Origin: Chromatiales bacterium
GTDB lineage: Bacteria > Pseudomonadota > Gammaproteobacteria > JACCXJ01
Length of the DNA stretch: 54,337 nt
Direction: 5' to 3'
NCBI GenBank assembly: GCA_043673925.1
Contig: JBIMKC010000001.1
Span: 3,106 to 57,442 of the forward strand
Shown here: positions 39,699 through 54,337 of the stretch, one piece after another
How positions within the stretch are numbered: the stretch's first letter is position 1
Layout: each line of letters opens with the position of its first letter
Program-made: the position numbers and the translations under genes
Notes under the pieces: generated by a model
Database searches by the model: none
Told to the model about the DNA's origin: nothing
What the model saw: the letters and a program-made list of their open reading frames with translations, nothing else

Positions 39699-39777
39699 CT
39701 CGGAAAAAACATGCCCCGGTATTGGCTACCGGGGCATGTCACAATCAACGCCGTGTCGGGAAGACCACGGCTGCCCG

Positions 39778-40287
39778 TTAGACGTGGTCGGCGTAGGGGT
39801 GTGCCGATTTCTTCTTGGCGACGACGTCCATGGCCTTCGGCAAACGCTTGATCGCGCGTTCGATCGACTCCTTGGTCGCCTGGTAGTTGAAATCTTGGAT
39901 TTTCTTGTTGTCCTCGGCTTCCCAGTGAATGAACACGCCCACGCAGATGAAGATATCCTCCGCTTCGCTGGGGGGAATAATGCCGTTTTCGACCGAATCA
40001 ACGACCGCCATGGCGACCGCACGTTGCGCGGGACCGAACATCTGTACGGCTTGCTTGGCACCCTTGATGGTAACCTTGTTAAAGAGAATGGTGTTGGGTT
40101 TACACGGCAAGTTTGGCGCTACGATCGCCATCAAGGTGCTGCACCCGTCCTTCTGGTTGGTCAAGGCATTGCAGAACGCGGCCTCGACGGCGCTGCCCCG
40201 CGGTCCCATGATGAGATCGACGTGCGCGATCTCGTTGCCATCCCCAACTAAGGATTCCCCGACTAATACTCTGTCAACGACTGCCAT
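39778..40287 (-). CDS. fae: formaldehyde-activating enzyme
   Basis: ORF trimmed to the ATG at 40287. It is collinear with M. extorquens Fae as I recall it ([53 protein letters not shown]). Confidence 0.95.
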
Positions 40288-40392
40288 AGTTTTAGCTCCT
40301 ATTACTTCTCCAGTTGAAGTTTGTCCGACAAGTGTTCTGAAGATAGACATCGCTTGCCACCTTAATATTATTACGGAAAAGGATCTCCCCCA

Positions 40393-42212: not shown

Positions 42213-42217
42213 AGAAA

Positions 42218-43198
42218 TTAAGAGAAGGACCGATCGAGCAAGGCTTCGTTGAATTTGCCGCCGTGGTAGGCCTTTCCGGTCCGGACCGAGCATATCGTGA
42301 TCCGCGCCGGGCTGAACAGCCCCGGATCGATCGCGTAGAAATTATACTTGTAATTCTTAAATATCTCGGCAAAAGGTTTCCCGTAGTCACGCGAAGAACT
42401 GCTCGGCAGCTTGCGAGCCAGATCCTCCGCATCGCTATCACCGCAGTCAACATAGAGCTTGACGTAGCCCCCATACATGATCGCATCGTTGGTTCGGCCC
42501 ATCGCGACAATAAAGTCGTTGGACGGTGGACAGATCGGCGCCGTCGCCATGCCATCGACGATCGCGGACAGCGGGAAGCCAAGCGTGTGCACCCGATGCA
42601 ACGACACCTCGAGGGAGCGCGCCACGACTTGCACCGCCCCGCATAGGCTCGTGGTCGGCGTGAGGATAAAGGTCAGGTCCTGGGGCTTGATGGCGCAGGA
42701 GTTCGCGACTTTCTCGGCGATTTCGACCGGAGGCCGATCCTTGACCTCCAAGACCAAACAGGCCTTGTCGAAAGCGTCTCGATACCCGAGTTCTTGAAAC
42801 AGAGGCTCGTGGCTGCCGATGGCCCGGGCCGGACCCGATCCCAACGCATTAAAGGCGCTCTTGCCCTCCCCGTATTCGAGGCTCCACCCCGCGTATTGGC
42901 TCGCCAAGCAGGCCAGCACCGGGTTCGAGGTATACACATCAAGCTGCCACGGCGAATGGGAAAAGTCCCCCCCGGCGCGGATACTGACCCGCCCGAGGCC
43001 CCCCAGACAGATCTCGGCGATGCGCCGCCCGGCCTCGATCCCGCCCAAAACCGCGATTCCGGCGTCCACAACGACAGTCCCGTTCGTTAAGGTATCCACC
43101 GCCAATCTCAGCGCCGCGGCATTGGCGATCAGAGCTTGCACCAAAGGCTGCGCTAAAGCATTCACACTGGGTTGGTTGTTCATCTTTATTAATTTCAT
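42218..43198 (-). CDS. mch: methenyltetrahydromethanopterin cyclohydrolase
   Basis: Full-length similarity to Mch (SVNALAQPLV..., GG.EAGRRIAEICLGGLG.V, ASQYAGW, GSGPARA). Confidence 0.95.
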   Translation of the reverse strand: MKLIKMNNQPSVNALAQPLVQALIANAAALRLAVDTLTNGTVVVDAGIAVLGGIEAGRRIAEICLGGLGRVSIRAGGDFSHSPWQLDVYTSNPVLACLASQYAGWSLEYGEGKSAFNALGSGPARAIGSHEPLFQELGYRDAFDKACLVLEVKDRPPVEIAEKVANSCAIKPQDLTFILTPTTSLCGAVQVVARSLEVSLHRVHTLGFPLSAIVDGMATAPICPPSNDFIVAMGRTNDAIMYGGYVKLYVDCGDSDAEDLARKLPSSSSRDYGKPFAEIFKNYKYNFYAIDPGLFSPARITICSVRTGKAYHGGKFNEALLDRSFS

Positions 43199-43213
43199 GC
43201 CACCGCCCCGTTT

Positions 43214-44329
43214 CTAGCCCGCTGTAAGCACCGCCAGCAACTTTTGACAACGGGTATCCAGGAGGCGAGTCACAGCGCCCGGCTCACACCCCGCTGCGTG
43301 CACCGTGCAGATCGGCTCCCCGGCGCGCACCCGCGTACCCGGAGCCGGCCGATCACGGCTCCAGCGGGGCCATGGCTGTGGGATCCGCAGCGCATGCGGC
43401 GCGTAGAGAACCCGCACCGCGGCGATTTCTTGTGCGCTGGTCCGGACCGGCAGTCGTCCGCGGCAGGCATCGACATGAACAGTGAATAATCCGCCATCCC
43501 TCTCGTGCAATTCAAAGCTCGCGGTCGGACGCGGGTTGATCTCGAGGAGAGTCCAGCGCCCGTCATCATCGACAATGAAATCCGCGCCGCAAAGACCGCG
43601 CAACCCAAACGCTGCGCTAAGCTCCGGGATGACCTCCGCCAGATCCGTACGCACACGTGCCGGTAAACTTCGATCCGCGATCGCGCCACGATACGTGAAC
43701 CTGCCAGGCTCCTGCCAGATCGCGTTATAGCCGACGATCGCCGCTCTGCGCCCGTTCGCCGCGAAGACCACCGAATGGACCCGCCCGGCGACGGCGCGCT
43801 GTAAAAAATACCCCGACGGACATTGGCCGTCCGCTCCCAGAGGCAGGACGTGCATGCCGCCCGAGCCGCCGATGCGCTTCCGTAACCACCCGCGCGAGTC
43901 GCCAGCGGGGCTCGAACGTGTTTCCGGATACGGGACCCCCAACCGCGACAGGGCGCCGAAAAAACTTGCCGGTTCTTTAACAGAACGCACAATCTCCGCC
44001 GCGTTACCGAGTAACTCCGCGCCCGCCGGCAGAGCGTCCAACAGCGTTGGGTCATGTTCGAAACCGCTGCCGGCGACCACGCCTGCGATCCGATCGCGTG
44101 CGCCCACCCTTTCGATCGCGCCGCATAAGGACTCTCGATCGAAACCTTGCGGCCCCGGACGAACGCGCGCTGCGCTCCGCGCGCACGCATGCGTATCGCG
44201 GTCGGCGAAAAGATCGACCACATGCACCGCGGCACGGCTCCGCTGCGCGGACTGGGCGAGGGCCCGGCCCGATTGGCCGATGATGAGATAAGCGGACTCA
44301 GCCAGCGGCGATCTCCCGGGCCACTTCAA
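43214..44329 (-). CDS. ATP-grasp carboligase-like protein (COG2232 / orfY-like)
   Basis: It sits between mtdB and mch as orfY does in methylotroph islands. It has an ATP-grasp C-terminal core (LRGLCGADFIVDDDGRWTLLEINPRP). The start overlaps the mtdB stop by 32 nt and is uncertain. Confidence 0.6.
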   Translation of the reverse strand: MKWPGRSPLAESAYLIIGQSGRALAQSAQRSRAAVHVVDLFADRDTHACARSAARVRPGPQGFDRESLCGAIERVGARDRIAGVVAGSGFEHDPTLLDALPAGAELLGNAAEIVRSVKEPASFFGALSRLGVPYPETRSSPAGDSRGWLRKRIGGSGGMHVLPLGADGQCPSGYFLQRAVAGRVHSVVFAANGRRAAIVGYNAIWQEPGRFTYRGAIADRSLPARVRTDLAEVIPELSAAFGLRGLCGADFIVDDDGRWTLLEINPRPTASFELHERDGGLFTVHVDACRGRLPVRTSAQEIAAVRVLYAPHALRIPQPWPRWSRDRPAPGTRVRAGEPICTVHAAGCEPGAVTRLLDTRCQKLLAVLTAG

Positions 44330-45206
44330 ATGCCTTGATGTGATCGAGATACACGGGTTTAGCCGCCTGAATCATGAGTTGAAACAGGCGATAATGAACC
44401 TGGTATTTGACATTGCCGATCGCCAAGGCGCCGATGCCGAGGGCCTTGGCCGGAGTCGATTCAAGCGCCCTGCCCTTGTCATTGACGCCGACGCCCTCAA
44501 TTCCGGCCGGGGGCACCGCGTTCACGTCGGCCGCCACCAGAAGTTCAGCCGCGGCCCCGAGTGGATCGCGCGACAGCACTTGAAATCCCGCCTTGGCGGC
44601 GCCGACGACCACATGGGCCCGCGGAAGGAACGCGCGTATGGCCGCGTCATTGCTGCTGTCGGCGCCCTGAAGTTTGACACCGTAACGTTCGTTGTAGGGC
44701 GCCGCGGCCTTCATGGCGGCCTCGGCGCCCCGCTGGCTCGCGAGAAACATATTCGCGCCACTGTTCGATCCCAATATTCCCGCGCACACACCGACGGGTC
44801 CCGTCCCGCCGAAGATATAGACATTGGCGCCGGACAATCCCTGCGCGCGGCCGTTCTTTCTAAGCGCCGTTTCCACACAGGCCATGAGCGCCGCGGCCGT
44901 GGTGATCGCCCCGCTCGGATCGGCGAATACGGAAACCTCGAAAGGCGGCACCATGGCCTTTTTCGCCGCCTCCAACATATCGATCGCGAGCCCGAAGTCG
45001 CGGCCCCCGATAAAGATACCGGTCCGCTTCACGCCGGTGGGGCTACGGGAAAAGATGGTGTCTTGGGTCAACGCGTGGATATCGTCCAGGGTAACGTTGG
45101 TATAGGGGATCACGCCGTTGAACTCTGCCTCATAGGCCATATTGACGTCGAACGGGCTCACGTTCTTCGTCGGGTTGAACATGTGTAGTAAATAGGGGTC
45201 TTTCAT
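44298..45206 (-). CDS. mtdB: NAD(P)-dependent methylene-tetrahydromethanopterin dehydrogenase
   Basis: LLHMFNPTKNVSPFDVNMA..., GIFIGGRD, FADPSGAITTAAA and GGTGPVG motifs, typical of the MtdB/MtdA family. Confidence 0.9.
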   Translation of the reverse strand: MKDPYLLHMFNPTKNVSPFDVNMAYEAEFNGVIPYTNVTLDDIHALTQDTIFSRSPTGVKRTGIFIGGRDFGLAIDMLEAAKKAMVPPFEVSVFADPSGAITTAAALMACVETALRKNGRAQGLSGANVYIFGGTGPVGVCAGILGSNSGANMFLASQRGAEAAMKAAAPYNERYGVKLQGADSSNDAAIRAFLPRAHVVVGAAKAGFQVLSRDPLGAAAELLVAADVNAVPPAGIEGVGVNDKGRALESTPAKALGIGALAIGNVKYQVHYRLFQLMIQAAKPVYLDHIKAFEVAREIAAG

Positions 45207-45281
45207 TTTACCGTCCGTTTATTTCTCAATAAATTCCGCTGCGGGCGTGCGGTCGCGGCCAGCGCCACTTCGCTCTTGAAA

Positions 45282-46295
45282 TTACGCGGCCTTTCTACGC
45301 ACGCCGATCTCGGCGCCGCTATTGCGCCCGCCGCAGACCGAGAAGCTTAAGGGCGCGCCCCATTGCCGGGTGGCCCGTTGCCATAGGCCGTGCGCGCGCG
45401 AAGCGCTGTCGACGAGCGCGAATCCTGTCGGGCCCCAGGAACTTTGTCCCACCCCTCGCAGGCCCTCGTCTTGCAACCAGCGCAGCACCTCCCCGACTCG
45501 CGGACTGCTATAACGGCCCCCCTGGTAGGGGGCGAAATAGTCACCGACCGCCTCCTGAATCGCGGTAATCCCGGCGCCGAAGGCGTCGAAGTCATGTTCG
45601 GCCAAGGCCGGTAGAACTTGCATCAACAGCACCCGGCAAAGATGCGCCGATACCTGCGTGGCCATCGGCGGCATCTGTTTAAACGCCGCGGCCTCCTCGC
45701 TGCCGTTCAACCCGGTCCGGGCTTGATCGGAAATGAGCAGGATCCGCCATGGCGGCGGAAACGCGACCTGACACAGCACCGGCGGCACCACTGTCGCGCG
45801 TCCGCGACCGCCATCGACAAGAAATCCACCGCTCTCGAACGCCGCGAGACCAATCCCCGAGCGAGCTCCCCGCTCGGTGAGTTTCGCAAGCTGACACAAA
45901 TCGCTATCAAGATCGAACAGGCGTACGAACGCGGCGCAGATCGCCAACGCCGATTGGGTTCCCGAACCGAGCCCCACGTGTTCCGGGATCGCCTCCTCGA
46001 TCGCAATCGACACCCCGCCCTTCAAGCCCAGTGTCCGCAGCAGCATCCGCGCGCACTGCTCCGCGCGCCCGCTCGATGGACCCTTAGCATGGATGCCCGG
46101 CGAGCGCGTGACGCTCAGGCGCGTCTGGATCCCGCTCAAGGTCAACCCGAGCCCGCCGAACCGCCGTCCGAGATCGCCGCTCATGTCAATAAAGCCCAGG
46201 TGTAAGCGCGCCGGCGCGGTGACGGTGACGGTCAGGCCATCGTGCTGAGCGCCGAGCGCTTGCTCCGGTAGCGGCGTTGCGGAAGGGTCAGGCAT
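45282..46295 (-). CDS. mptG: beta-ribofuranosylaminobenzene 5'-phosphate synthase
   Basis: A GHMP-kinase-like fold with V.APARLHLGFIDMSG..GRRFGGLG..L and GLGSGTQ motifs. Confidence 0.85.
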   Translation of the reverse strand: MPDPSATPLPEQALGAQHDGLTVTVTAPARLHLGFIDMSGDLGRRFGGLGLTLSGIQTRLSVTRSPGIHAKGPSSGRAEQCARMLLRTLGLKGGVSIAIEEAIPEHVGLGSGTQSALAICAAFVRLFDLDSDLCQLAKLTERGARSGIGLAAFESGGFLVDGGRGRATVVPPVLCQVAFPPPWRILLISDQARTGLNGSEEAAAFKQMPPMATQVSAHLCRVLLMQVLPALAEHDFDAFGAGITAIQEAVGDYFAPYQGGRYSSPRVGEVLRWLQDEGLRGVGQSSWGPTGFALVDSASRAHGLWQRATRQWGAPLSFSVCGGRNSGAEIGVRRKAA

Positions 46296-46384
46296 AGCGC
46301 GGGAAATTCATTCGATCGGTTAATGATATAACACCCATGACTCCCATACCTAACACCGACTCGCCTGATCGGCGCGGCGAAACG

Positions 46385-46413
46385 TTGACGGTTTACCAGG
46401 GAAATGTTAGAAA
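46385..46413 (+). promoter_or_regulatory. candidate sigma-70 promoter for the fwdD-fhc operon
   Basis: TTGACG (46385-46390), a 17-nt spacer, then TAGAAA (46408-46413), about 80 nt upstream of the first ORF. This rests on a pattern match only. Confidence 0.25.
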
Positions 46414-46492
46414 TGTGGTCATGAAACGTAGTCCTTGCGAAGGCCCTCCCAGCGCCGGAGAGACGACCCTCTCGAGGCGTAATAATTAACTA

Positions 46493-46855
46493 TTGACTAT
46501 GGCCGAAAAGATGATCCTCATCCCGGGGCGGACTAGCAAGCAGGGCACGTCATTAAACGCGGGGAAGCTCAAGAAAGAGTACCGGGAAGTGACCTCCACA
46601 GTGGAAATGAACACCGATGACATGACGCGACTCGGCATCAAGGAGGGCGATGCGGTGCGCTTAGCCACGGTCATCGGCGAGACCGTCGTACGCTGCAAGG
46701 GACGCAAACCCACCGACCTGCCCGCAGGCATGTTGTTTATTCCCTATGGCCCGCCGAGCTCTCAGCTTATGGACGGCGATACCGCGGCGAGCGGTATGCC
46801 CTTGTCCAAGAATTTCGAGGTCACCGTGGAGCGCGTCGAAGGCCGCGTCCCTTGA
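46493..46855 (+). CDS. fwdD: formylmethanofuran dehydrogenase subunit D-like protein (molybdopterin-dinucleotide-binding beta-barrel)
   Basis: The L.PGRT..QG......K..Y....S.VEMN..DM..LGIKEGD.V........VV.C........G..FIPYGP pattern matches archaeal FwdD/FmdD. The start could be TTG 46493, ATG 46499 or ATG 46511. Confidence 0.8.
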   Translation: MTMAEKMILIPGRTSKQGTSLNAGKLKKEYREVTSTVEMNTDDMTRLGIKEGDAVRLATVIGETVVRCKGRKPTDLPAGMLFIPYGPPSSQLMDGDTAASGMPLSKNFEVTVERVEGRVP

Positions 46856-46935
46856 TCCGATCCGGCCTTTTTATTCCGCCGTATTCCGGCGCCGGCTTAA
46901 ACCATCACACAACGTAGGGTTTCCGAGGTGACGAT

Positions 46936-48276
46936 ATGACTGAAAATATTCGGACAGTGGAACATGCCACCTGCACCTTTTGCGGTTGCGTGTGCGACGA
47001 TATGGACCTGACGGTCGATCTCGATGCGAAGCGCATCACCAAGGCCAAGAACGCGTGTGTGCTCGGGCGCGCCTGGTTCGCGGAGCATACTATCGAAGAT
47101 CGCCCTTTCGCCTTAATCGACGGCAAGGCCGCCACCACCGAGGAGGCGGTCGAGGCCGCCGCGCAGATCCTCGCCGCCGCGCGGCTGCCGATCATCTACG
47201 GCTTGAGCGACACCACCTGCGAGGCCCAGCGTCAAGCGGTGGCGATATGCGATCTCATGCACGGCAATATCGACACCACCACCTCGGTTTGCCACGGTCC
47301 CTCCGGCATCGCGTTCCAAGGCGTCGGCGAAAGCACGGCCACGCTGGGTGAAATCAAGAACCGCGCGGACCTCGTGATGTACTGGGGTGGTAACCCCGCG
47401 GAATCGCATCCGCGCCACTTCACCCGCTACGCGGTCACCGCGAAAGGACGGTATGTCCCCAATGGGAGAAAAGACCGCTTCGTGGTCTTGGTCGACGTGC
47501 GGCGCACGCCGAGTGCGCCGGTGGCGGACCTCTTCATCCAGGTCAAGCCCGGACATGACTTTGAGCTTTTGTGGGCCCTGCGTGCCTTCGTCAAAGGCCG
47601 CAAGGTCGATCCGAACGTGGCCGAGCGCACGGGCGTGCCCCTGGCGACCATGGAGGATCTCGCGCAGCGGATGAAAAACTGCCGCTACGGGGTCTTGTTC
47701 TTCGGCATGGGGCTGACGATGACCCGCGGGCGCCATTTCAATTCCGGCGCCTTGCTGGCGCTCGCCACGGACCTCAATGAATTTACCCATTTCGTGGCCA
47801 AGCCCGTCCGCGGTCACGGCAACGTTACCGGAGCCGACAACGTCGTCTCCTGGCAGACGGGATACCCGTTCGGGGTCAATTTCAGCCGCGGCTATCCGCG
47901 TTTCAATCCCGGCGAGTACACGACAGTCGATCTGCTCGCCCGTGGCGAAGCGGATGCGGCCATGATCATCGCGAGCGATCCGGCGTCCAATTTCCCGCGC
48001 CAGGCCATCGAGCACATGAAGCGCATCCCCGTGATCGCCTTGGACACCAAACCGACCGACACCACGCAGTTAGCGAAGGTCGCCTTCACCACTTCGACCT
48101 ATGGCATCAATACGTCGGGGACGGTGTATCGCATGGACGATGTTCCGATCACGTTGCGCCCTGCCTTCGAGTCGCCGTATCCGAGCGACGAAGAGGTGCT
48201 CATCGCGATCAAGAACCGGGTGCGCGAGCTGCTGACTCAGAAACGCACGCGGTTCCCCAACCGGAAGGTGGCTTAG
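46936..48276 (+). CDS. fhcB: formylmethanofuran dehydrogenase subunit B homolog, full length with intact cofactor motifs
   Basis: 446 aa. It has an N-terminal C13-x2-C16-x3-C20...C41 motif and TSVCHGPSG (Cys119-His120, nt 47290-47295), within MopB-family similarity. Confidence 0.9.
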   Translation: MTENIRTVEHATCTFCGCVCDDMDLTVDLDAKRITKAKNACVLGRAWFAEHTIEDRPFALIDGKAATTEEAVEAAAQILAAARLPIIYGLSDTTCEAQRQAVAICDLMHGNIDTTTSVCHGPSGIAFQGVGESTATLGEIKNRADLVMYWGGNPAESHPRHFTRYAVTAKGRYVPNGRKDRFVVLVDVRRTPSAPVADLFIQVKPGHDFELLWALRAFVKGRKVDPNVAERTGVPLATMEDLAQRMKNCRYGVLFFGMGLTMTRGRHFNSGALLALATDLNEFTHFVAKPVRGHGNVTGADNVVSWQTGYPFGVNFSRGYPRFNPGEYTTVDLLARGEADAAMIIASDPASNFPRQAIEHMKRIPVIALDTKPTDTTQLAKVAFTTSTYGINTSGTVYRMDDVPITLRPAFESPYPSDEEVLIAIKNRVRELLTQKRTRFPNRKVA

Positions 48277-48290
48277 GTAAACAAGTACCG

Positions 48291-49931
48291 ATGCTACGGA
48301 TATCGAATGGCCGGATCTACGACCCCGCCAACGGAGTGAACGGCGCAGTCCGGGATCTCTGCGTCAATGAGGGAAAGGTCGTCGCGGACGTTCCCGCGGC
48401 GGCGAAACGCATCGACGCGCAAGGCATGGTGATCATGCCGGGGGGCATCGACATCCATTGTCATATCGCCGGACCCAAGGTCAATCTCGCCCGCAAGCTC
48501 CAGCCCGAGGACCACCGACTCGACGTGCATCCCGGCACCGCGATTACCCGTTCCGGGACCGGGGGCGTGGTGCCTTCTACTTTTGCCACCGGCTACCGTT
48601 ACGCGGCGCTCGGGTACACGACGGCGATGGAAGCTGCGGTCACCCCCATCGGCGCCCGTCACGTACTGGAGGAATTTCACGACCTCCCGGTGATCGACAA
48701 GGGGTTCTATGTGCTCCTCGGGAACAACGTTTTCTTGTACGATTTGCTTAAAGCAGGCCGGCGCGAGGACTTTCGCCAAGCGGTGGCCTGGTGGGTCAAC
48801 GCGACCAAGGCGTATGCGGTTAAGTTGGTCAACCCGGGGAGCGATGAGCTTTGGAAGGGACGCCGCAACGCGAACATTACCGATATCAACGAGAATATCG
48901 ACAACTTCGATCTCACGCCGCGCGAAGTGATCAAGGCGTTTATCGAAACCGTCAACGATCTCGGTCTTCCCCACCCCCCGCACATTCATTGCAACAACCT
49001 CGGCCACAGCGGCAACTACACCACCACCCTCGAAACCATGCGGGCCGCCGAGGGACGGCGGGCGCATATCGCGCACGTGCAGTTCCATAGCTACGGCGGG
49101 GAACCGGGCAAGAACCCGACCTCGAAAGGTCCCGAGATCGCGGACTACATCAATCGCCATCCGAATATTACCGCCGACGTCGGCCAGGTCATGTTCGGTA
49201 AGGCCACGGCGATGACCGCCGACGCGCCGCTCGCCTACCTGTTGCGCGGCATCAGCGGCAACAAATGGGTGAACGCCGATACCGAGTGCGAAAGCGGTTG
49301 CGGGATTGTGCCCTTTACCTATCAAGAAAAAGTCTACATACACGCGCTGCAGTGGGCGATCGGACTGGAGTTGTTCCTGTTATCCGAGGACCCGTGGCGG
49401 TTGGTCTTATCGACCGACCATCCCAATGGCGGTTCCTTCATGAAGTACCCGCGTTTGATCCGCTTGCTCATGGATCGGGAATTTCGCAACCAAGAGATCC
49501 GGAAGGTGAATCAAAAGGCGATCCGCAACACCGTGCTTGCGGACACACTCGACCGCGAGTACACCCTGGAGGAGATCGCGATCATCACCCGGGCCGGCCC
49601 CGCGCGCGCGCTCGGGCTGAAGGACAAGGGGCACCTCGGCGTCGGCGCAGACGCCGACATCACCATTTACGACGAGCACGACGACAAGGAACGCATGTTC
49701 AGCACGCCGCGCTACCTGATCAAGGACGGCGTCGCGGTCATCGAAAACCACGAATTCCGTTGTGACCACGAGGGGCGTATCCTGCATACGGCCCCCGCGT
49801 ACGACGCCGGGATCGAGAACAGCATTAAACCCTTCTTCGAGGATAACTATAGTATTGTTTTTGAGAATTACGCGGTCACGGACCGGTATCTGCACCACCA
49901 CCAGGTGATACCGACAGTCCTAGAACGATAA
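48291..49931 (+). CDS. fhcA: formylmethanofuran dehydrogenase subunit A homolog (amidohydrolase)
   Basis: 546 aa, with the GGIDIHCHI metal-binding HxH motif and amidohydrolase-fold similarity. Confidence 0.9.
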   Translation: MLRISNGRIYDPANGVNGAVRDLCVNEGKVVADVPAAAKRIDAQGMVIMPGGIDIHCHIAGPKVNLARKLQPEDHRLDVHPGTAITRSGTGGVVPSTFATGYRYAALGYTTAMEAAVTPIGARHVLEEFHDLPVIDKGFYVLLGNNVFLYDLLKAGRREDFRQAVAWWVNATKAYAVKLVNPGSDELWKGRRNANITDINENIDNFDLTPREVIKAFIETVNDLGLPHPPHIHCNNLGHSGNYTTTLETMRAAEGRRAHIAHVQFHSYGGEPGKNPTSKGPEIADYINRHPNITADVGQVMFGKATAMTADAPLAYLLRGISGNKWVNADTECESGCGIVPFTYQEKVYIHALQWAIGLELFLLSEDPWRLVLSTDHPNGGSFMKYPRLIRLLMDREFRNQEIRKVNQKAIRNTVLADTLDREYTLEEIAIITRAGPARALGLKDKGHLGVGADADITIYDEHDDKERMFSTPRYLIKDGVAVIENHEFRCDHEGRILHTAPAYDAGIENSIKPFFEDNYSIVFENYAVTDRYLHHHQVIPTVLER

Positions 49932-49954
49932 GAATTCGAATAAAATCCTTCTCC

Positions 49955-50851
49955 ATGAATATTCAATCCACCGAGGTTATCGACACCTTCGCGGAGGCTT
50001 TCGCCATGTGGGGGGCGCGGGTGACCATCACCGCGGCGACCCCCGCGTGGGCCCTCGCCGCCGCACGGTCGATGACCGGATTCGCGACCTCGGTGATCGG
50101 CTGTAAGTGCGAGGCCGGGATCGAGCGGGAGCTGTCCGCCGAGGAGACGCCCGACGCGCGCCCCGGGATCAGCGTGTTGCTGTTTTCGACCAGTTTGGAG
50201 GGGGCCGGCAAACGGCTGCTCGAGCGGATCGGTCAGTGCGTGATGACCTGCCCGAGCACCTCATGTTTCAACGGGCTCGCCTCGGGCGAGGGCGTGAGCG
50301 TCGGCGGCAAGCTTCGCTTCTTCGGCGACGGCTATCAGATCGGTAAGTCCCTGGACGGGCGCCGCTATTGGCGCATTCCGGTGATGGATGGCGAATTTGT
50401 GGTCGAAGACCGCTTCAATATCCAGCCCGCGGTGGGCGGCGGCAATCTTTTGATCCACGGCCTGGATCAAACCCGGACCCTGGAAGCAGCCGAGGCCGCG
50501 GCCGGCGCAATGCGCGCCGTTCCCGGCGTGATTCTGCCGTTTCCAAACGGTATCGTGCGCAGTGGCAGCAAGCCCGGATCGCGTTACAAGGGCCTGCCGG
50601 CCTCCACCAACGATGCTTACTGTCCAACGCTGCGCGCGTTTTCCGCGGCGACCGAGGTCCCCCTTGATGCCGCTTGCGTGTTGGAAATCGTGATCGATGG
50701 GCTCGAACTGCGGGGGGTCCAAGACGCTATGCGCGTTGGCATCAACGCGGCTTCCGGGAACGGCGCCTTGCGGATCTCTGCTGGAAATTACGGTGGGGAT
50801 CTCGGCCAGTACCGGATCGGTCTGTACGAGCTTCTTCAAGCGGCGACCTGA
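49955..50851 (+). CDS. fhcD: formylmethanofuran--tetrahydromethanopterin N-formyltransferase
   Basis: IDTFAEAFAMWGARVTITAA...WA..AARSMTGFATSVIGCKCEAGIE matches Ftr. Confidence 0.95.
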   Translation: MNIQSTEVIDTFAEAFAMWGARVTITAATPAWALAAARSMTGFATSVIGCKCEAGIERELSAEETPDARPGISVLLFSTSLEGAGKRLLERIGQCVMTCPSTSCFNGLASGEGVSVGGKLRFFGDGYQIGKSLDGRRYWRIPVMDGEFVVEDRFNIQPAVGGGNLLIHGLDQTRTLEAAEAAAGAMRAVPGVILPFPNGIVRSGSKPGSRYKGLPASTNDAYCPTLRAFSAATEVPLDAACVLEIVIDGLELRGVQDAMRVGINAASGNGALRISAGNYGGDLGQYRIGLYELLQAAT

Positions 50852-50994
50852 GAGTTTGTGAAAAAACCTACTGCGCTCGGGATCTCGCGTACCGGCGGTG
50901 CTCGGAATCCTCATGTATTTCAACATACACTCCGGTTCCTGCGCTCCGGCGGAACGCGACTTCCCTTCGCTCGCGACGGTTCTTTCACAAACTC
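50852..50994 (-). mobile_element. 143-bp MITE, copy 2 (inverted relative to copy 1; flanked by TGA/TGA)
   Basis: TIRs are gagtttgtgaaaaaac and gttctttcacaaactc. Direct repeats are TGA at 50849-50851 (the fhcD stop codon) and at 50995-50997. It differs from copy 1 at 7 of 143 positions. Confidence 0.8.
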
Positions 50995-51015
50995 TGAGCG
51001 ACTAGTTTCGTTACA

Positions 51016-51834
51016 ATGATTCTAAAGCTCGTACTCAAGCACGAACCGGAAGTCCCGCTAGAAGCCGAAGTCATCACGCCGCCGAAGCTCAACGGTTTGA
51101 GTATCGGTGAGATCACGAAGCTTCCGCTGCAATACGGGAACGAACGCGTCGAGCTGGGCGAGTTTTTTCGAGTCGAGGGCAGCTATAGCGGTGAAATCCG
51201 CGTGGAGGGTGATCTTGCGCGCGTCAAGCTTGTCGGCGCGGGGATGAGCGAAGGCCGGATCGTGATACATGGCCGCATCGGGATGCATCTCGGCGCCGGG
51301 ATGTCGGGCGGGGAGATCCTCGTCGAAGGCGACGCCGGCGATTGGGTCGCGCCCGAGATGTCCGGAGGCCGGATCGTCATCATGGGCAATGCCGGACACA
51401 TGATCGGCAGCGCCTATCGGGGGAGTCCGGCCGGCATTCGCGGCGGGGAAATCCTCATCCACGGCAATGCCGGCAACGAGATCGGTCACGCCATGCGCAA
51501 AGGACTGATCGCGATCGGCGGAGACTCTGGCGACTTTACCGGGGTCAGCATGCTCGCGGGGACCATCATCGTGATCGGCGATCTCGGCAACCGCACGGGG
51601 GCGGGAATGAAACGCGGTTCCATCGTCTCGATGCGGCCCGCGCAGATGCTGCCGACCTTCAGCTATGCTTGCAGCTATCAGCCGCAGTTCCTGCGCCTGT
51701 ACCTAATGCATTTGTCGCGGCTGGGGCTACCGGTCACGCCCGCTCATCTCAATGGCCGCTACCAACGCTGGAGCGGGGATGCGCTCGAGATGAACCGCGG
51801 CGAGGTGTTGCTGCTCATTGGCGAGGCCGCGTAG
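51016..51834 (+). CDS. fhcC: formylmethanofuran dehydrogenase subunit C homolog
   Basis: Repeated G-x-G-x-G beta-helix repeats (GAGMSEGRIVIHG, GAGMSGGEILVEGDAG, EMSGGRIVIMGNAG, IRGGEILIHGNAG), as in FwdC and the GltB C-terminal domain. Confidence 0.9.
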   Translation: MILKLVLKHEPEVPLEAEVITPPKLNGLSIGEITKLPLQYGNERVELGEFFRVEGSYSGEIRVEGDLARVKLVGAGMSEGRIVIHGRIGMHLGAGMSGGEILVEGDAGDWVAPEMSGGRIVIMGNAGHMIGSAYRGSPAGIRGGEILIHGNAGNEIGHAMRKGLIAIGGDSGDFTGVSMLAGTIIVIGDLGNRTGAGMKRGSIVSMRPAQMLPTFSYACSYQPQFLRLYLMHLSRLGLPVTPAHLNGRYQRWSGDALEMNRGEVLLLIGEAA

Positions 51835-51910
51835 ATCGGCGATGCGCACCTGAGAAAGCACTCCAAGCCGGAACCATAAACCACTGTCACTGCGTCGCGA
51901 GGAGATCCAA

Positions 51911-52216
51911 ATGACCACAATCGTAACCGAAAATTGCCTCCGGTGCCGCTTCACCGACTGCGTCACCGTCTGCCCGGTGAACTGCTTCCATGGGGACGAT
52001 GAAATGCTGTATATCGACCCCGAGGTCTGCATCGACTGTAGCGCCTGCGTACCCGAGTGTCCGGTACATGCCATCCATGAGGGGGAAGACATTCCCGACA
52101 ACCTGAAAGACTGGATACAGATCAACGCCGACCGCGCCCCGAACTTACCCGTGATCGATGGCAAACAAGATCCGCTGCCCACGGCCGAGGCGCGCCAAGC
52201 GGAGTTAGGGTATTGA
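51911..52216 (+). CDS. fdxA: 7Fe ferredoxin (Azotobacter FdI type, 3Fe-4S + 4Fe-4S)
   Basis: CLRCRFTDCVTVCPVNCF and CIDCSACVPECP motifs. Confidence 0.9.
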   Translation: MTTIVTENCLRCRFTDCVTVCPVNCFHGDDEMLYIDPEVCIDCSACVPECPVHAIHEGEDIPDNLKDWIQINADRAPNLPVIDGKQDPLPTAEARQAELGY

Positions 52217-52241
52217 TAGAAGTATGTTGCGCGTGCGGTAG

Positions 52242-53618
52242 ATGAATACCTTAGGAACCCCTGAAAACCCATTGCAGATCGCCGTCGTCGGCAGCGGCCC
52301 GAGCGGCTTCTACGCCGCCGAAGCCCTGATCAAGTCCGGGCGCGCCGTGCGCGTGGACATGTTCGAGCGGCTCGCCTCGCCCTTCGGGCTCGTACGCAGC
52401 GGCGTCGCGCCCGATCACCCCAAGCTCAAACAAGCCATCCTCGTCTACGACAAGATCGCGCGCTCGCCCGAGTTTTCATTTTGCGGCAATATCAATGTGG
52501 GCAAGGACATCACGCTCGGCGAGCTGCGCCAGAACTATCACGCGGTCCTGTTCACCTGCGGGGCGGAAACGGACCGGCGGCTCGGGATCCCGGGCGAAGA
52601 TCTCCGCGGCAGCCATACCGCCACCGAATTCGTCGGCTGGTACAACGGTCATCCCGATTATCGCGACCGGGTGTTTGATCTATCGCACGAGGTCGCGGTC
52701 ATCATCGGCCAGGGCAACGTGGCCGCGGATGTTTGCCGCATCCTGGCCAAAACGGCGGGCGAGTTAAAACATACCGATATCTCGGAGCACGCGCTCGATA
52801 CGCTGGCCGAGAGTAAAGTGCGGGAAATCCATGCAATCGGACGCCGCGGACCGGCGCAAGCGAAATTCACCAGTCGCGAATTGCGCGAGTTCGGGGAGCT
52901 CCGCGATTGCGATCCGCGCGTCGATGCGCTGGAGTTAACTCTGAATCCGGAAAGCGAGGCCGAGCTCGCCGACAAGAACAACGTGGTCAGCGCCAAGAAT
53001 GTCGAGATCTTCCGTGATTTCGCCCGGCGCATGCCGAGCAAGCACCGACGCTGTATTTTCCAGTTCCTGCGCGGCCCCGTGCGGCTCGAAGGCGAGGGGC
53101 GGCTTGCGCGCGTGGTGCTGGAACGCAATCGGCTGCAAGGGGCGCCGTTTCAGCAGTCGGCGCGGGGCACGGGGGAGATCAGCACGCTCGAATGCGGGAT
53201 CTTATTCCGCAGCATCGGCTATAAAGGGGTGGCCGTTTCCGAGGCGCCCTTCGACGAGCGCAAGGGCGTGATGCCAAACCGCGCCGGACGCGTGCTCGAC
53301 AGTGACGGCAGTGTCGTTCCCGGTCTTTATTGCGCGGGCTGGATAAAACGCGGTCCAACCGGGATCATCGGGACCAATCGCGCCTGCAGCGTGGAAACCG
53401 TCGGTTCGCTGCTTGCGGATCTCGACGCACTCGCGACACCGGGCCCGAAAAGCGGGAGGGACGGTATCCGAGCGCTCATCGAGCAGCGCGGTTTGCGCTC
53501 GGTCAACTACGAGGGTTGGCTAAAGCTCGACGCCGCCGAAGTCGAGCAGGGTAAACCCAAGGGAAAACCGCGCGAAAAATTCACCCGGCTGCATGAAATG
53601 CTGGCGCTTCTCGGATAA
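52242..53618 (+). CDS. ferredoxin--NADP(+) reductase, adrenodoxin-reductase/FprA type
   Basis: IAVVGSGPSGFYAAE, FERLASPFGLVRSGVAPDHPKLK, and a second dinucleotide motif (VAVIIGQGNVAADVCR). Confidence 0.85.
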   Translation: MNTLGTPENPLQIAVVGSGPSGFYAAEALIKSGRAVRVDMFERLASPFGLVRSGVAPDHPKLKQAILVYDKIARSPEFSFCGNINVGKDITLGELRQNYHAVLFTCGAETDRRLGIPGEDLRGSHTATEFVGWYNGHPDYRDRVFDLSHEVAVIIGQGNVAADVCRILAKTAGELKHTDISEHALDTLAESKVREIHAIGRRGPAQAKFTSRELREFGELRDCDPRVDALELTLNPESEAELADKNNVVSAKNVEIFRDFARRMPSKHRRCIFQFLRGPVRLEGEGRLARVVLERNRLQGAPFQQSARGTGEISTLECGILFRSIGYKGVAVSEAPFDERKGVMPNRAGRVLDSDGSVVPGLYCAGWIKRGPTGIIGTNRACSVETVGSLLADLDALATPGPKSGRDGIRALIEQRGLRSVNYEGWLKLDAAEVEQGKPKGKPREKFTRLHEMLALLG

Positions 53619-53626
53619 AGCTCGCG

Positions 53627-53895
53627 CTGAGCGGAGTTCGCGATCGCCTTCTGCGCCGCCAGCGCATGCCCCAGGACGCCGAGGGCACCGGCGCCGTCGC
53701 GCGGGGGATGGGATAGGGACGCTGGCCTTTGCGGCGCAGCTCCTCGTAGAGCGCCTGTATACAGCGATCCACAGCAAGCGTATGGTGCGCAGTGCGCACG
53801 CAGATTATTCGTCCGGTTTCCCCATAGCCGCTTTCGGTTCGTGGCAGCGCGGCAGCGCCGTCAGGACCTCCCCGTGGGTCAGGTGTGCCTGCCGG
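53627..53895 (-). pseudogene. frameshifted internal fragment of a D-cysteine desulfhydrase / ACC deaminase-family PLP enzyme
   Basis: On the minus strand, ..ALYEELRRKGQRPYPIP continues in another frame as RDGAGALGVLGHALAAQKAIANSAQ. This parallels E. coli DcyD ..[38 protein letters not shown] as I recall it. Both ends of the gene are missing. Confidence 0.4.
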
Positions 53896-53900
53896 GCTTC

Positions 53901-54092
53901 CTAAACTCCAACTTCAGGTACAGAAAGATTCCGACAAATCTTTCGCGCTAACTGGTTGGAGATTTCGATATGGCGTGGAACGGCTGCAATTACACCGGTG
54001 GCGGAATTGGTCCAAAGTGAGTGAGAACTACCTTCACGCTTGAGATAACAGCCGTGTTGCCGCAAATGCAGGAGCAGTGCGCTGCGCTTCAC
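53901..54092 (-). CDS. hicA: HicA-family mRNA interferase toxin
   Basis: 63 aa, MKRSALLLHLRQHGCYLKREGSSHSLW.N, typical of the HicA/YcfA family. Confidence 0.85.
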   Translation of the reverse strand: MKRSALLLHLRQHGCYLKREGSSHSLWTNSATGVIAAVPRHIEISNQLARKICRNLSVPEVGV

Positions 54093-54304
54093 GATAACAC
54101 GACTGTTTCACGTTCCGCCTCCGAAGGTACTCCACGTAAGCAATCCTCACGGCGATCCTCAAGAATGAGAGCAATTGCGCCAGCCAAGCTCGCTCGGGCT
54201 TCTTCCTTAGTTCGGCCTTGACCATTTGCGCCCGGGATCTCGGGACAGTAGGCAATAAACCACTCGCCATCTCGCTCAAAAATTGCCGTAAATTCGTTTC
54301 GCAT
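54089..54304 (-). CDS. hicB: HicB-family antitoxin (short form)
   Basis: 71 aa, FTAIFERDGEWFIAYCPEIPGANGQGRTKEEA. It overlaps the hicA start by 4 nt. Confidence 0.8.
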   Translation of the reverse strand: MRNEFTAIFERDGEWFIAYCPEIPGANGQGRTKEEARASLAGAIALILEDRREDCLRGVPSEAERETVVLS

Positions 54305-54337
54305 TTGTCACCTACCGGGTGAAATCGAATTGGCTCA

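What the first reader, a model, noticed from the sequence alone, without database searches (positions are those of the whole stretch)
46493..51834. The formylmethanofuran dehydrogenase-like operon looks like a complete, possibly redox-competent archaeal-type Fwd/Fmd rather than a hydrolase-only Fhc
Seen in sequence:
- A 120-aa FwdD-like ORF lies directly upstream of the B subunit.
- The B subunit is 446 aa, not truncated.
- It carries an N-terminal C13-x2-C16-x3-C20...C41 motif (nt 46972-46995 and 47056-47058), which is the MopB-type 4Fe-4S pattern.
- It also carries TSVCHGPSG with Cys119-His120 (TGC CAC at 47290-47295). This mirrors the (Se)Cys-His metal-ligand pair of FdhF (VUHGPS) and, as I recall, the Cys-His pair at almost the same residue number in Methanothermobacter FwdB.

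Established knowledge: in the Methylobacterium extorquens paradigm the complex has only four subunits (FhcA, B, C, D) and acts as a formyltransferase/hydrolase that releases formate. Its B subunit was reported (Pomper and Vorholt) to be about 37 kDa and to lack the Mo, molybdopterin and 4Fe-4S binding motifs.

Inference: this organism may keep a metal/pterin-dependent enzyme that oxidises formyl-methylofuran directly to CO2, or runs in reverse. The window also encodes an NAD-dependent formate dehydrogenase (19301-20503).
Basis: partly seen in the sequence, partly recalled or inferred. Interest (0 to 1): 0.7.

Follow-up and report, generated by a model that had tools for sequence, protein, structure and literature searches.

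The report
Bacterial formyl-methanofuran dehydrogenase with NADPH module
This uncultured soil methane-oxidiser relative, like hundreds of other bacterial genomes, encodes a version of the last C1-oxidation complex that keeps every sequence hallmark of the archaeal metal-pterin dehydrogenase and sits next to a ferredoxin and an NADPH-ferredoxin reductase, so it probably burns the formyl group straight to CO2 rather than releasing formate as the textbook bacterial complex does.

Summary
The 120-aa ORF is an FwdD homologue. The 446-aa B subunit has the four [4Fe-4S] cysteines, Cys119-His120, and also Arg292, the third catalytic residue of FwdB. It scores far better against archaeal FwdB/FmdB structures (E 1e-114) than against M. 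extorquens FhcB (E 3e-19).

In 80 related genome loci, all uncultured MAGs, these residues are invariant and FwdD lies directly upstream in 79. Seven cultured proteobacterial fhc loci keep the FeS cysteines but have lost Cys-His and Arg and have no FwdD. The FeS motif is therefore not diagnostic; the catalytic triad plus FwdD is.

A 7Fe FdxA ferredoxin (51911-52216) and an adrenodoxin-reductase/FprA-type NADPH:ferredoxin reductase (52242-53618) follow subunit C. This pair flanks the cluster in about 64 of 69 loci with enough sequence and in none of the seven degenerate loci.

The complex is a hybrid, not purely archaeal. It has Fhc gene order, an operon-encoded formyltransferase and an FhcC-type C-terminus, and no FwdF/G polyferredoxin.

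Best reading: a formyltransferase/formyl-methylofuran dehydrogenase passing electrons to FdxA, FprA and NADP+. This is inferred, with no biochemistry. I rate it a new variant of a known kind.

The parts
46296..46492 (.). 197-nt divergent intergenic region between the RFAP synthase gene (minus strand) and fwdD. It presumably holds the promoters and the leader.
   Evidence: No Rfam family approaches its threshold and there is no Moco riboswitch. No consensus sigma-70 site was found here.
46493..46855 (+). FwdD homologue. This is the MopB 'domain IV' cap, a molybdopterin-dinucleotide-binding beta-barrel. 120 aa from TTG; ATGs at 46499 and 46511 are possible true starts.
   Evidence: Pfam PF01568 4e-12 and NCBIfam FwdD 9e-25. 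Solved FwdD chains match at 1e-19 to 1e-15. It lies directly upstream of B in 79 of 80 related loci, and 37 positions are at least 95% conserved.
46936..48276 (+). FwdB-type catalytic subunit, annotated FhcB or 'formylmethanofuran dehydrogenase subunit B'. 446 aa. Cys13/16/20/41 are [4Fe-4S] ligands, Cys119 is the predicted Mo/W ligand, and His120 and Arg292 are catalytic.
   Evidence: TIGR03129 3e-151. 8rja_B 1e-114 and 5t5i_B 8e-110, against 6s6y_B 3e-19. All seven key residues are invariant in 81 of 81 sequences. It retains 111 of 169 archaeal-invariant positions.
48291..49931 (+). FwdA/FhcA amidohydrolase subunit, the formyl-methanofuran/methylofuran hydrolase site. 546 aa.
   Evidence: TIGR03121 4e-211. 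It is closer to archaeal FwdA (8rja_A, 495 bits) than to M. extorquens FhcA (370 bits). The metal-ligand motifs DIHCH, AVKLV, HIHCNN, HVQFHS and STDHPN are present.
49955..50851 (+). FhcD/Ftr, the formylmethanofuran:H4MPT formyltransferase. 298 aa.
   Evidence: Pfam FTR plus FTR_C and TIGR03119 3e-119. The best solved match is M. extorquens FhcD 6s6y_D (314 bits), ahead of archaeal Ftr (291 bits).
51016..51834 (+). FwdC/FhcC beta-helix scaffold subunit, 272 aa, with an Fhc-type C-terminal region.
   Evidence: TIGR03122 3e-80. Archaeal FwdC alignments stop at residues 205-227. Only M. extorquens FhcC aligns through 216-266, the region that docks FhcD in 6S6Y.
51911..52216 (+). 7Fe ([3Fe-4S][4Fe-4S]) ferredoxin of the Azotobacter FdI/FdxA type, 101 aa. 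It is the proposed electron acceptor of the B-subunit cluster.
   Evidence: NCBIfam FdxA_Protbact 3e-34. A. vinelandii FdI structures match at 6e-29. All nine Cys are at least 95% conserved in 60 sequences. It is adjacent to the cluster in 58 of 80 loci.
52242..53618 (+). Adrenodoxin-reductase / M. tuberculosis FprA-type FAD enzyme, 458 aa. It is the proposed ferredoxin:NADP+ oxidoreductase.
   Evidence: 1cjc 2e-107 and 1lqt (FprA) 4e-106 over the full length. The GxGPSG, GQGNVA and GRRGP motifs are at least 95% conserved in 66 sequences. It lies downstream of C in 53 of the 80 related loci and upstream of fwdD in 11. No terminator-like site separates C, fdx and fprA.

Best explanation
The seven co-oriented genes fwdD-fwdB-fhcA-fhcD-fhcC-fdxA-fprA encode a hybrid formyltransferase / formyl-methylofuran dehydrogenase.

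Proposed steps:
1. FhcD, docked on the Fhc-type C-terminus of subunit C, moves the formyl group from formyl-H4MPT to the furan cofactor.
2. Subunit A hydrolyses it at a binuclear metal site.
3. The formate is not released, unlike in M. extorquens Fhc. It passes to a Mo- or W-bis-pyranopterin centre held between B (Cys119, His120, Arg292) and the FwdD cap, and is oxidised to CO2.
4. The two electrons leave through the N-terminal [4Fe-4S] cluster of B to the 7Fe ferredoxin FdxA.
5. The FprA-type reductase passes them on to NADP+.

Shown here: homology, residue conservation, and conservation of the gene neighbourhood.

Inferred: cofactor binding, formate channelling, the oxidative direction, and the Fd-to-NADP+ route. 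The direction follows from thermodynamics. From established values, E0' of CO2/formyl-MFR is about -530 mV and of NADP+/NADPH about -320 mV, so oxidation is strongly downhill and NADPH-driven reduction is not.
For: - B is a full-length FwdB homologue with the FeS cysteines and the Cys-His-Arg triad. The model enzyme has lost all of these.
- The triad and the FeS cysteines are invariant in 81 of 81 sequences carrying Gamma-, Alpha- and Betaproteobacteria, Gemmatimonadota and Chloroflexota labels.
- The window keeps 111 of 169 archaeal-invariant positions, against 56-62 for degenerate FhcBs.
- FwdD is directly upstream in 79 of 80 loci. The single exception has transposase-like ORFs inserted there.
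- Natural FwdD-FwdB fusion proteins exist and mostly keep the triad. One was confirmed to be archaeal.
- FdxA and FprA homologues are identified confidently.
- FprA is adjacent in 64 of the roughly 69 related loci with enough flanking sequence. It lies downstream in most proteobacterial loci and upstream in Gemmatimonadota and Betaproteobacteria, so the linkage survived rearrangement.
- Seven cultured proteobacterial fhc loci with degenerate B have no FwdD, Fdx or FprA within 9 kb, although synteny with the H4MPT genes is otherwise the same.
- Subunit C keeps the FhcC-type C-terminus, and Ftr is closest to FhcD.
- The family is common: at least 587 matching stretches in the species-representative genome collection.
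Against: - There is no biochemical, metal or expression evidence.
- No Mo/W-cofactor biosynthesis, fdhD or tungstate/molybdate transport genes occur in the window or in the 8-kb flanks of related loci, and the rest of the genome could not be read.
- The window also encodes a metal-free NAD-dependent formate dehydrogenase (19301-20503). That implies a pool of free formate and fits some formate release.
- The 80 loci are related, with B 74-96% identical, and may descend from one cluster spread by transfer. The FdxA/FprA linkage is therefore not 80 independent observations.
- Three or four loci with room lack FprA (L059, L061, L080, perhaps L032).
- The FwdF/G polyferredoxin that wires archaeal FwdB is absent, so FdxA docking is a guess.
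- The AlphaFold model of B was poor (pLDDT 64.6, with the active-site loops below 50), so structure adds little.
Confidence: 0.6

Rival explanations
1. B/D is an active metal-pterin dehydrogenase, but FdxA and FprA are not its redox partners. On this reading they sit next to the cluster for another reason, for example to supply electrons to a step of H4MPT or methylofuran biosynthesis such as dihydromethanopterin reduction, or for general Fe-S or P450-type functions. The real acceptor of B would then be some other ferredoxin, a quinone-linked system or a cytochrome.
For: - The cluster lies inside an H4MPT/methylofuran biosynthesis island.
- Archaeal dihydromethanopterin reductase (TIGR02700) carries a ferredoxin domain that weakly matches this Fdx.
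- The usual physiological direction of FprA-type enzymes is NADPH to ferredoxin (established knowledge).
- A few type-1 loci lack FprA.
- The related loci are not independent samples.
Against: - The pair lies immediately next to the structural genes on the same strand, 76 and 25 nt apart, with no terminator-like site.
- It stays attached to the fwd/fhc genes when the order changes from downstream to upstream.
- It is absent from all seven degenerate fhc loci, which have the same biosynthesis genes nearby.
Confidence: 0.17
2. The complex still works as a formyltransferase/hydrolase that releases formate. On this reading B and FwdD are structural scaffolds whose catalytic motifs are retained relics, or they bind the cofactor without turnover.
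For: - The only bacterial complex studied biochemically is a hydrolase with a scaffold B.
- The operon has Fhc gene order and an Fhc-type C/D interface.
- An NAD-dependent formate dehydrogenase is encoded in the window.
- Degenerate FhcBs keep the FeS cysteines without a catalytic site, so motif retention without dehydrogenase function does occur in this family.
Against: - Lineages in which B is a scaffold have lost Cys-His-Arg and FwdD. Here all are invariant across 81 sequences that differ at up to about 25% of other positions.
- Two thirds of archaeal-invariant positions are kept, against one third in the scaffolds.
- A separately encoded 120-aa cap protein is maintained in 79 of 80 loci.
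Confidence: 0.12
3. The enzyme runs in the archaeal, reductive direction. On this reading it fixes CO2 to formyl-methylofuran with electrons from NADPH via FprA and FdxA, feeding a reductive C1 route.
For: - All parts of the CO2-reducing Fwd core are present.
- FprA-type reductases normally reduce ferredoxin with NADPH.
- The [4Fe-4S] cluster of FdI-type ferredoxins has a very low potential (established knowledge).
Against: - Going from NADPH (-320 mV) to CO2/formyl-MFR (about -530 mV) is strongly uphill, and no bifurcating or energy-coupling module such as Hdr or Eha/Ech is encoded nearby.
- The neighbours are the oxidative formaldehyde pathway genes fae, mtdB and mch. In some loci they include a methanethiol-oxidase-like gene that would produce formaldehyde.
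- The closest relative is an atmospheric methane-oxidiser lineage, USC-gamma.
Confidence: 0.04

Closest known systems
Archaeal tungsten/molybdenum formylmethanofuran dehydrogenase FwdABCDFG / FmdABCD... (Methanothermobacter wolfeii, PDB 5T5I)
   Same: Homologues of A, B, C and D are all present. B has the same [4Fe-4S] Cys motif, the identical SVCHGPS Cys-His segment and the RGHxNVTG arginine. B is 41-44% identical over its full length with few indels.
   Different: - There is no FwdF or FwdG polyferredoxin; a 7Fe FdxA and an FprA-type flavoenzyme are encoded instead.
- The formyltransferase is encoded inside the operon.
- Subunit C has the bacterial Fhc-type C-terminus.
- The host is an aerobic bacterium whose neighbouring genes belong to the oxidative formaldehyde pathway, so the direction is probably oxidative.
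Formyltransferase/hydrolase complex FhcABCD of Methylorubrum extorquens (PDB 6S6Y; Pomper & Vorholt; Hemmann et al. 2019)
   Same: B-A-D-C gene order, the formyltransferase as a cluster member, an FhcC-type C-terminal region, and a setting among fae, mtdB, mch and H4MPT biosynthesis genes.
   Different: M. extorquens FhcB is 361 aa. It lacks the FeS domain, Cys118, His119 and Arg288, and has loops that block the pterin site. It has no FwdD and releases formate. Here every one of those features is in the Fwd state, and an Fdx/FprA pair is attached.
Degenerate FhcB clusters of cultured Proteobacteria (Paraburkholderia, Caballeronia, Azoarcus, Azospirillum, Thiodictyon)
   Same: Full-length B with the four N-terminal cysteines, the same B-A-D-C order, and in Azospirillum the same upstream synteny.
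   Different: B is only 25-29% identical. Cys-His and Arg are replaced. There is no FwdD, FdxA or FprA within 9 kb.
F420-reducing formylmethanofuran dehydrogenase of the ethane oxidiser Candidatus Ethanoperedens (PDB 8RJA; PMC11493965)
   Same: It is a precedent for an Fwd core working oxidatively and wired to a soluble two-electron cofactor rather than ending at ferredoxin. It is also the best-scoring solved relative of both B and A.
   Different: It is archaeal and anaerobic. Its acceptor is F420, reached through a different added module, and it has no formyltransferase in the complex.
Bacterial fwdD-containing H4MPT clusters of NC10, Firmicutes and Synergistetes (Chistoserdova 2013/2016)
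   Same: Bacteria that keep an fwdD homologue beside the fhc/fwd genes.
   Different: [quoted passage not shown] Here it occurs in a gammaproteobacterium and in many Gamma-, Alpha- and Betaproteobacteria-labelled MAGs. I could not check whether those other clusters carry FdxA/FprA.
Mycobacterium tuberculosis FprA with 7Fe ferredoxin; Azotobacter vinelandii FdI
   Same: The same two protein families form a known NADPH-ferredoxin redox couple (the pairing is established knowledge).
   Different: In those systems electrons flow from NADPH to ferredoxin and on to P450s or other acceptors. Here the proposed flow is reversed, and the genes are fused to a C1-oxidation operon.

Membership tests
Formylmethanofuran dehydrogenase (Fwd/Fmd, EC 1.2.7.12) | The B subunit has a Cys or Sec metal ligand followed by His, plus the catalytic Arg (FwdB Cys118, His119, Arg288). 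| tested here: met
   Cys119, His120 and Arg292 align with them. They are invariant in 81 of 81 relatives.
Formylmethanofuran dehydrogenase (Fwd/Fmd, EC 1.2.7.12) | The B subunit has an N-terminal four-cysteine [4Fe-4S] motif. | tested here: met
   Cys13, 16, 20 and 41 are present and invariant. The motif is also kept by degenerate FhcBs, so it does not discriminate.
Formylmethanofuran dehydrogenase (Fwd/Fmd, EC 1.2.7.12) | An FwdD subunit (MopB domain IV) caps the pterin site. | tested here: met
   The 120-aa ORF matches solved FwdD chains at 1e-19 to 1e-15. It is directly upstream in 79 of 80 loci.
Formylmethanofuran dehydrogenase (Fwd/Fmd, EC 1.2.7.12) | An FwdA amidohydrolase with binuclear metal ligands and an FwdC beta-helix subunit. 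| tested here: met
   TIGR03121 4e-211 and TIGR03122 3e-80. The ligand motifs are present at motif level.
Formylmethanofuran dehydrogenase (Fwd/Fmd, EC 1.2.7.12) | A polyferredoxin electron module (FwdF and/or FwdG). | tested here: not met
   No such gene occurs in the window cluster or in the related loci. A 7Fe FdxA is present instead.
Formylmethanofuran dehydrogenase (Fwd/Fmd, EC 1.2.7.12) | Bound Mo/W-bis-pyranopterin guanine dinucleotide and formyl-MFR:acceptor oxidoreductase activity. | not testable with these tools
   This needs metal analysis and an enzyme assay. As a proxy, 111 of 169 archaeal-invariant positions are kept.
Formyltransferase/hydrolase complex (Fhc) | The formyltransferase FhcD is part of the cluster, in B-A-D-C order. 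| tested here: met
   The best solved match of Ftr is FhcD 6s6y_D.
Formyltransferase/hydrolase complex (Fhc) | FhcC has a C-terminal helix-loop-helix that docks FhcD. | tested here: inconclusive
   Residues 216-266 align only with M. extorquens FhcC and not with archaeal FwdC. This is sequence-level evidence only; the interface was not modelled.
Formyltransferase/hydrolase complex (Fhc) | B is a non-catalytic scaffold: no metal-ligand Cys-His, no Arg and no FwdD. | tested here: not met
   All are present here. This contrasts with the M. extorquens enzyme and with seven degenerate loci.
Formyltransferase/hydrolase complex (Fhc) | The product is free formate. | not testable with these tools
   This needs an enzyme assay or labelling.
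Adrenodoxin reductase / FprA-type NADPH:ferredoxin reductases | Full-length homology, with the FAD and NADP dinucleotide motifs and the GRRGP Arg-Arg pair. Assigning that pair to the 2'-phosphate of NADP is from memory. | tested here: met
   1cjc 2e-107 and 1lqt 4e-106. The motifs are at least 95% conserved.
7Fe FdxA / Azotobacter FdI ferredoxins | The CxxCxxxxCxxxCP ... CxxCxxCxxxCP pattern and the FdI C-terminal extension. | tested here: met
   A. vinelandii FdI matches at 6e-29 over residues 4-94. The FdxA_Protbact score of 117.5 bits is below the 135-bit cutoff. The Cys pattern is conserved.

The most novel reading that the evidence does not exclude
A large and so far uncultured group of aerobic bacteria ends formaldehyde oxidation without free formate. 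The group includes relatives of the USC-gamma atmospheric methane oxidisers, sponge-symbiont-like gammaproteobacteria and Gemmatimonadota. On this reading an oxygen-tolerant Mo/W formyl-methylofuran dehydrogenase, physically fused to the formyltransferase, channels the formyl group to CO2. It captures the very low-potential electrons (about -500 mV) on a dedicated ferredoxin and converts them to NADPH through FprA. These aerobes would then own a ferredoxin-reducing C1 step previously thought confined to anaerobic archaea. The M. extorquens Fhc would be the derived, degenerate end-point of this enzyme rather than the bacterial norm.
Probability: 0.4. Interest if true: 0.8.

Novelty: new variant of a known kind. 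Interest (0 to 1): 0.7.

Why it matters
The textbook bacterial H4MPT pathway ends in a hydrolase that releases formate, and the one surveyed statement on record says fwdD is absent from Proteobacteria.

If this cluster is active, three things follow:
- Carbon and electron budgets drawn for many uncultured methylotrophs and methanotrophs are wrong at the last step. This includes relatives of the upland-soil atmospheric-methane oxidisers. There would be no obligatory formate pool, there would be a Mo/W requirement, and one extra NADPH or reduced ferredoxin would be gained per C1.
- It would supply the missing evolutionary intermediate between archaeal Fwd and bacterial Fhc that Hemmann et al. 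postulated: loss of dehydrogenase activity coming after association with the formyltransferase.
- It would offer an oxygen-exposed CO2/formyl-MFR catalyst wired to NADPH, which is of interest for engineering.

The hypothesis is directly testable by heterologous expression. A practical point also follows: the automatic labels 'formylmethanofuran dehydrogenase subunit B' and 'Fhc subunit B' hide two functionally different states. These can be told apart by three residues and the presence of fwdD.

Tried and rejected
- Moco riboswitch in the 197-nt leader: an Rfam scan of 45900-47100 at E up to 10 gave only three chance snoRNA/sRNA hits.
- Promoter and terminator scan of 45200-54337: fewer hits than in shuffles, so nothing usable. 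The one useful point is that no terminator-like site separates C, fdx and fprA.
- Mo/W-cofactor genes: Pfam/NCBIfam annotation of about 45 window ORFs found no moa, moe, mob, fdhD, mod or tup gene. There is only a MOSC-domain protein at 2538-3428.
- Clustering of flanking ORFs in the 80 loci found only H4MPT-pathway genes and a methanethiol-oxidase-like group. The first clustering, on stop-to-stop ORFs, was swamped by antisense ORFs and was discarded.
- AlphaFold2 of B with a 32-sequence alignment gave a poor model (pLDDT 64.6). Foldseek still ranked FwdB (E 9e-37, TM 0.65) above FhcB (E 3e-19, TM 0.48), but I give this little weight.
- Naming a cultured organism that carries this cluster type failed.
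- Literature: ten searches found no paper that places fwdD in Proteobacteria, or that links Fwd/Fhc to FprA-type reductases. The library holds open-access papers only.
- The automatic alignment of 150 cluster representatives was too noisy for exact motif counts. I use it only qualitatively: the FeS cysteines are near-universal and the triad is in the minority.

Full report
**Origin of the window**

The B protein is 100% identical to a protein of a 'Chromatiales bacterium' MAG. It is 96% identical to 'Fhc subunit B' of Chromatiales bacterium USCg_Taylor, the upland-soil-cluster gamma lineage. The window is therefore from an uncultured gammaproteobacterium related to atmospheric methane oxidisers.

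**Checking the observation**

ORF listing and direct reading of the sequence confirm each item:
- a 120-aa ORF at 46493-46855;
- a 446-aa B subunit at 46936-48276;
- Cys13, Cys16 and Cys20 at 46972-46995, and Cys41 at 47056-47058;
- TGC CAC at 47290-47295, encoding Cys119-His120 in TSVCHGPS.

The small ORF carries the molybdopterin-dinucleotide-binding domain. It is most similar to FwdD models and to solved FwdD chains.

B matches archaeal FwdB/FmdB chains over its full length: 8rja_B at 1e-114 and 5t5i_B at 8e-110. It matches the 361-aa M. extorquens FhcB only at 3e-19, and only from residue 60 onward.

Hemmann et al. 2019 state that M. extorquens FhcB has Ser62 in place of Cys118 and lacks His119 and Arg288. 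They also report that it lacks the N-terminal FeS domain and FwdD, and has three loops that clash with the pterin.

**Is the B/D pair under selection as an enzyme?**

A scan of one genome per species found at least 587 matching stretches. The best 80 loci are all MAGs, with B 74-96% identical to the window. By record label they comprise:
- about 60 Gammaproteobacteria-type labels;
- 12 Gemmatimonadota;
- 2 Alphaproteobacteria;
- 2 Betaproteobacteria;
- 2 Chloroflexota;
- 2 with other or doubtful labels.

In the window plus these 80 sequences, Cys13, Cys16, Cys20, Cys41, Cys119, His120 and Arg292 are all invariant. FwdD lies directly upstream of B in 79 of the 80. The exception, L039, has transposase-like ORFs in that position.

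I used three archaeal FwdB/FmdB proteins with solved, cofactor-containing structures to stand in for pterin-site integrity. They share 169 invariant positions.
- The window keeps 111 of them, and many of the changes are conservative.
- Three degenerate bacterial FhcBs keep 56-62.
- From residue 100 onward the window-FwdB alignment has only two small indels. There is therefore no sign of the pterin-blocking loop insertions described for FhcB.

**The control set**

Seven fhc loci from cultured Proteobacteria were compared: Paraburkholderia (two), Caballeronia, Azoarcus, Azospirillum (two) and Thiodictyon. These lie on chromids or plasmids.
- Their B subunits are 25-29% identical to the window.
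- All keep the four N-terminal cysteines.
- All have lost Cys-His and the Arg.
- None has FwdD.

Two conclusions follow. The catalytic triad and FwdD are gained or lost together.

Two further observations agree with this. Natural FwdD-FwdB fusion proteins exist among distant relatives and mostly keep the triad. One of them sits in an archaeal locus next to a small ferredoxin, FwdA, FwdC and Mch.

Two more genes follow subunit C on the same strand, after gaps of 76 and 25 nt with no terminator-like site.
- The first (51911-52216) is a 7Fe ferredoxin of the Azotobacter FdI/FdxA type.
- The second (52242-53618) is a full-length homologue of adrenodoxin reductase and M. tuberculosis FprA, an NADPH:ferredoxin reductase. 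Its dinucleotide motifs and GRRGP are conserved.

The distribution of this pair across the loci is as follows:

| Set | Fdx/FprA status | Loci |
|---|---|---|
| Related loci | Fdx and FprA downstream of C | 53 |
| Related loci (Gemmatimonadota, Betaproteobacteria) | FprA upstream of fwdD, with Fdx detected in 4 | 11 |
| Related loci | Fdx but no FprA (L079) | 1 |
| Related loci with sequence to spare | Both absent | 3-4 |
| Degenerate control loci | Neither within 9 kb | 7 of 7 |

Some Gemmatimonadota loci also swap the order of Ftr and C while keeping all the components. Linkage that survives rearrangement, and that tracks the catalytic state of B, is the main argument that FdxA and FprA are the electron outlet of the enzyme.

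**The complex is a hybrid**

Each subunit was compared with solved structures of the archaeal enzymes and of M. extorquens Fhc:

| Subunit | Closer to | Evidence |
|---|---|---|
| A | Archaeal FwdA | 495 bits against 370 bits for M. extorquens FhcA |
| B | Archaeal FwdB | |
| Formyltransferase | M. extorquens FhcD | 314 bits against 291 bits for archaeal Ftr; it also sits inside the operon in Fhc order |
| C | Mixed | Archaeal FwdC alignments stop at residues 205-227; only M. extorquens FhcC aligns through 216-266 |

Residues 216-266 of C correspond to the helix-loop-helix that docks FhcD in the crystal structure. No FwdF/G polyferredoxin is encoded.

In the terms of Hemmann et al., this looks like the postulated intermediate: the formyltransferase is already associated, and the dehydrogenase module has not yet been lost.

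**Mechanism proposed**

1. FhcD transfers the formyl group from formyl-H4MPT to the furan cofactor.
2. Subunit A hydrolyses it.
3. Formate is oxidised at the Mo/W-pterin site of B/D.
4. Electrons pass through the [4Fe-4S] cluster of B to FdxA, then through FprA to NADP+.

The oxidative direction is inferred from two things. The neighbouring genes fae, mtdB and mch belong to the oxidative pathway. The thermodynamics, from established values, also point that way: CO2/formyl-MFR is about -530 mV and NADP+/NADPH is -320 mV.

Homology, residue conservation and synteny are shown. Everything downstream of them is inference.

**Evidence against, and gaps**

- No Mo/W-cofactor biosynthesis or transport genes are in the window or the flanks, and the rest of the genome is out of reach.
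- There is no Moco riboswitch.
- The window also has an NAD-dependent formate dehydrogenase with a LysR-family gene upstream. This suggests that free formate exists in this organism.
- The 80 loci are related to one another, so the counts overstate independence.
- The AlphaFold model of B was of low confidence, and its Foldseek ranking (FwdB above FhcB) carries little weight.

**Novelty**

- Automated annotation already calls these proteins 'formylmethanofuran dehydrogenase subunit B' or 'Fhc subunit B'.
- Metagenome papers draw 'Fwd' for bacterial MAGs without comment.
- Wells et al. 2023 noted that the Cys-bearing FwdB family has 149 bacterial representatives and attributed them to transfer from archaea.
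- Chistoserdova 2016 recorded fwdD in NC10, Firmicutes and Synergistetes but stated that it is not present in Proteobacteria.
- In the searchable library I found no paper that describes the proteobacterial fwdD/fwdB-type cluster, the co-variation of FwdD with the catalytic triad, or the FdxA/FprA linkage.

I therefore rate it a new variant of a known kind, of fairly high interest and directly testable.

Noticed in passing
window 35685-46295 (minus strand): A contiguous H4MPT/methylofuran pathway island runs divergently from fwdD. It contains RFAP synthase (45282-46295), MtdB-type methylene-H4MPT dehydrogenase (44298-45206) and an ATP-grasp protein (43214-44329). It continues with Mch (42218-43198), an MptN-like glutamate ligase (41298-42293), a CitG-like protein (40393-41553) and Fae (39778-40350). 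The remaining genes are an MfnD-like ATP-grasp protein (38760-39698), a hydantoinase-like protein (37656-38744), a chorismate-binding PabB/TrpE-like enzyme (36289-37716) and an amino-acid-kinase-fold protein (35685-36302). Azospirillum has the same upstream order next to its degenerate fhc cluster.
   Followed up: partly
window 17957-20503: A metal-free NAD-dependent formate dehydrogenase (19301-20503, 2-hydroxyacid dehydrogenase family) lies next to a LysR-type regulator gene (17957-19021). Its presence alongside a putatively formate-free terminal step is unexplained.
   Followed up: partly
window 2538-3428: A MOSC_N plus MOSC domain protein (YcbX/mARC-like). This family is molybdenum-cofactor dependent. 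It is the only hint in the window that the organism makes Moco.
   Followed up: no
L031, L068, L070 and about 9 other loci, upstream of fwdD (e.g. L068:1277-2659, L070:4112-6315, L031:2925-3674): In 12 related loci a group of genes sits just upstream of the fwd/fhc cluster: an SBP56-family protein (methanethiol-oxidase-like), a MauG-like di-haem peroxidase, a SCO1/SenC protein and a redoxin. This suggests formaldehyde from methanethiol oxidation as the feed in those organisms.
   Followed up: partly
L039:6700-8000: The only related locus without fwdD has IS3-like transposase ORFs inserted directly upstream of an otherwise intact B with the catalytic triad. This is a possible recent disruption.
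   Followed up: partly
L084 / L085 8001-12739 (archaeal contig): A natural FwdD-FwdB fusion of 572 aa is followed by a 127-aa two-cluster ferredoxin, a 63-66-aa ORF, FwdA, FwdC and Mch. It sits in a contig with proteasome and exosome genes. Similar 570-606-aa fusions are among the best distant representatives.
   Followed up: partly
L020, L027, L036, L053, L054 (Gemmatimonadota loci): The gene order is D-B-A-C-Ftr instead of D-B-A-Ftr-C, and FprA (with or without Fdx) lies upstream of fwdD. In seven Gemmatimonadota loci FprA is present but no FdxA was detected at E 1e-5.
   Followed up: no
window 12943-17787: Glycogen or alpha-glucan turnover genes lie back to back: a MalQ-type 4-alpha-glucanotransferase (12943-15150) and an alpha-glucan phosphorylase with a DUF3417 N-terminus (15235-17787).
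   Followed up: no
window 50852-51015: A 164-nt gap separates the formyltransferase gene from subunit C. This is much longer than the other junctions in the cluster (14-80 nt). No element was identified in it.
   Followed up: no
PDB chain 9sfi_Q (alignment): This archaeal FwdB homologue, deposited as 'Molybdopterin oxidoreductase', has an unknown residue X in SVXHGPS where the window has Cys119. It is presumably selenocysteine. In the representative search, several hits that begin near query residue 126-148 may be Sec-containing genes split at the UGA codon.
   Followed up: no
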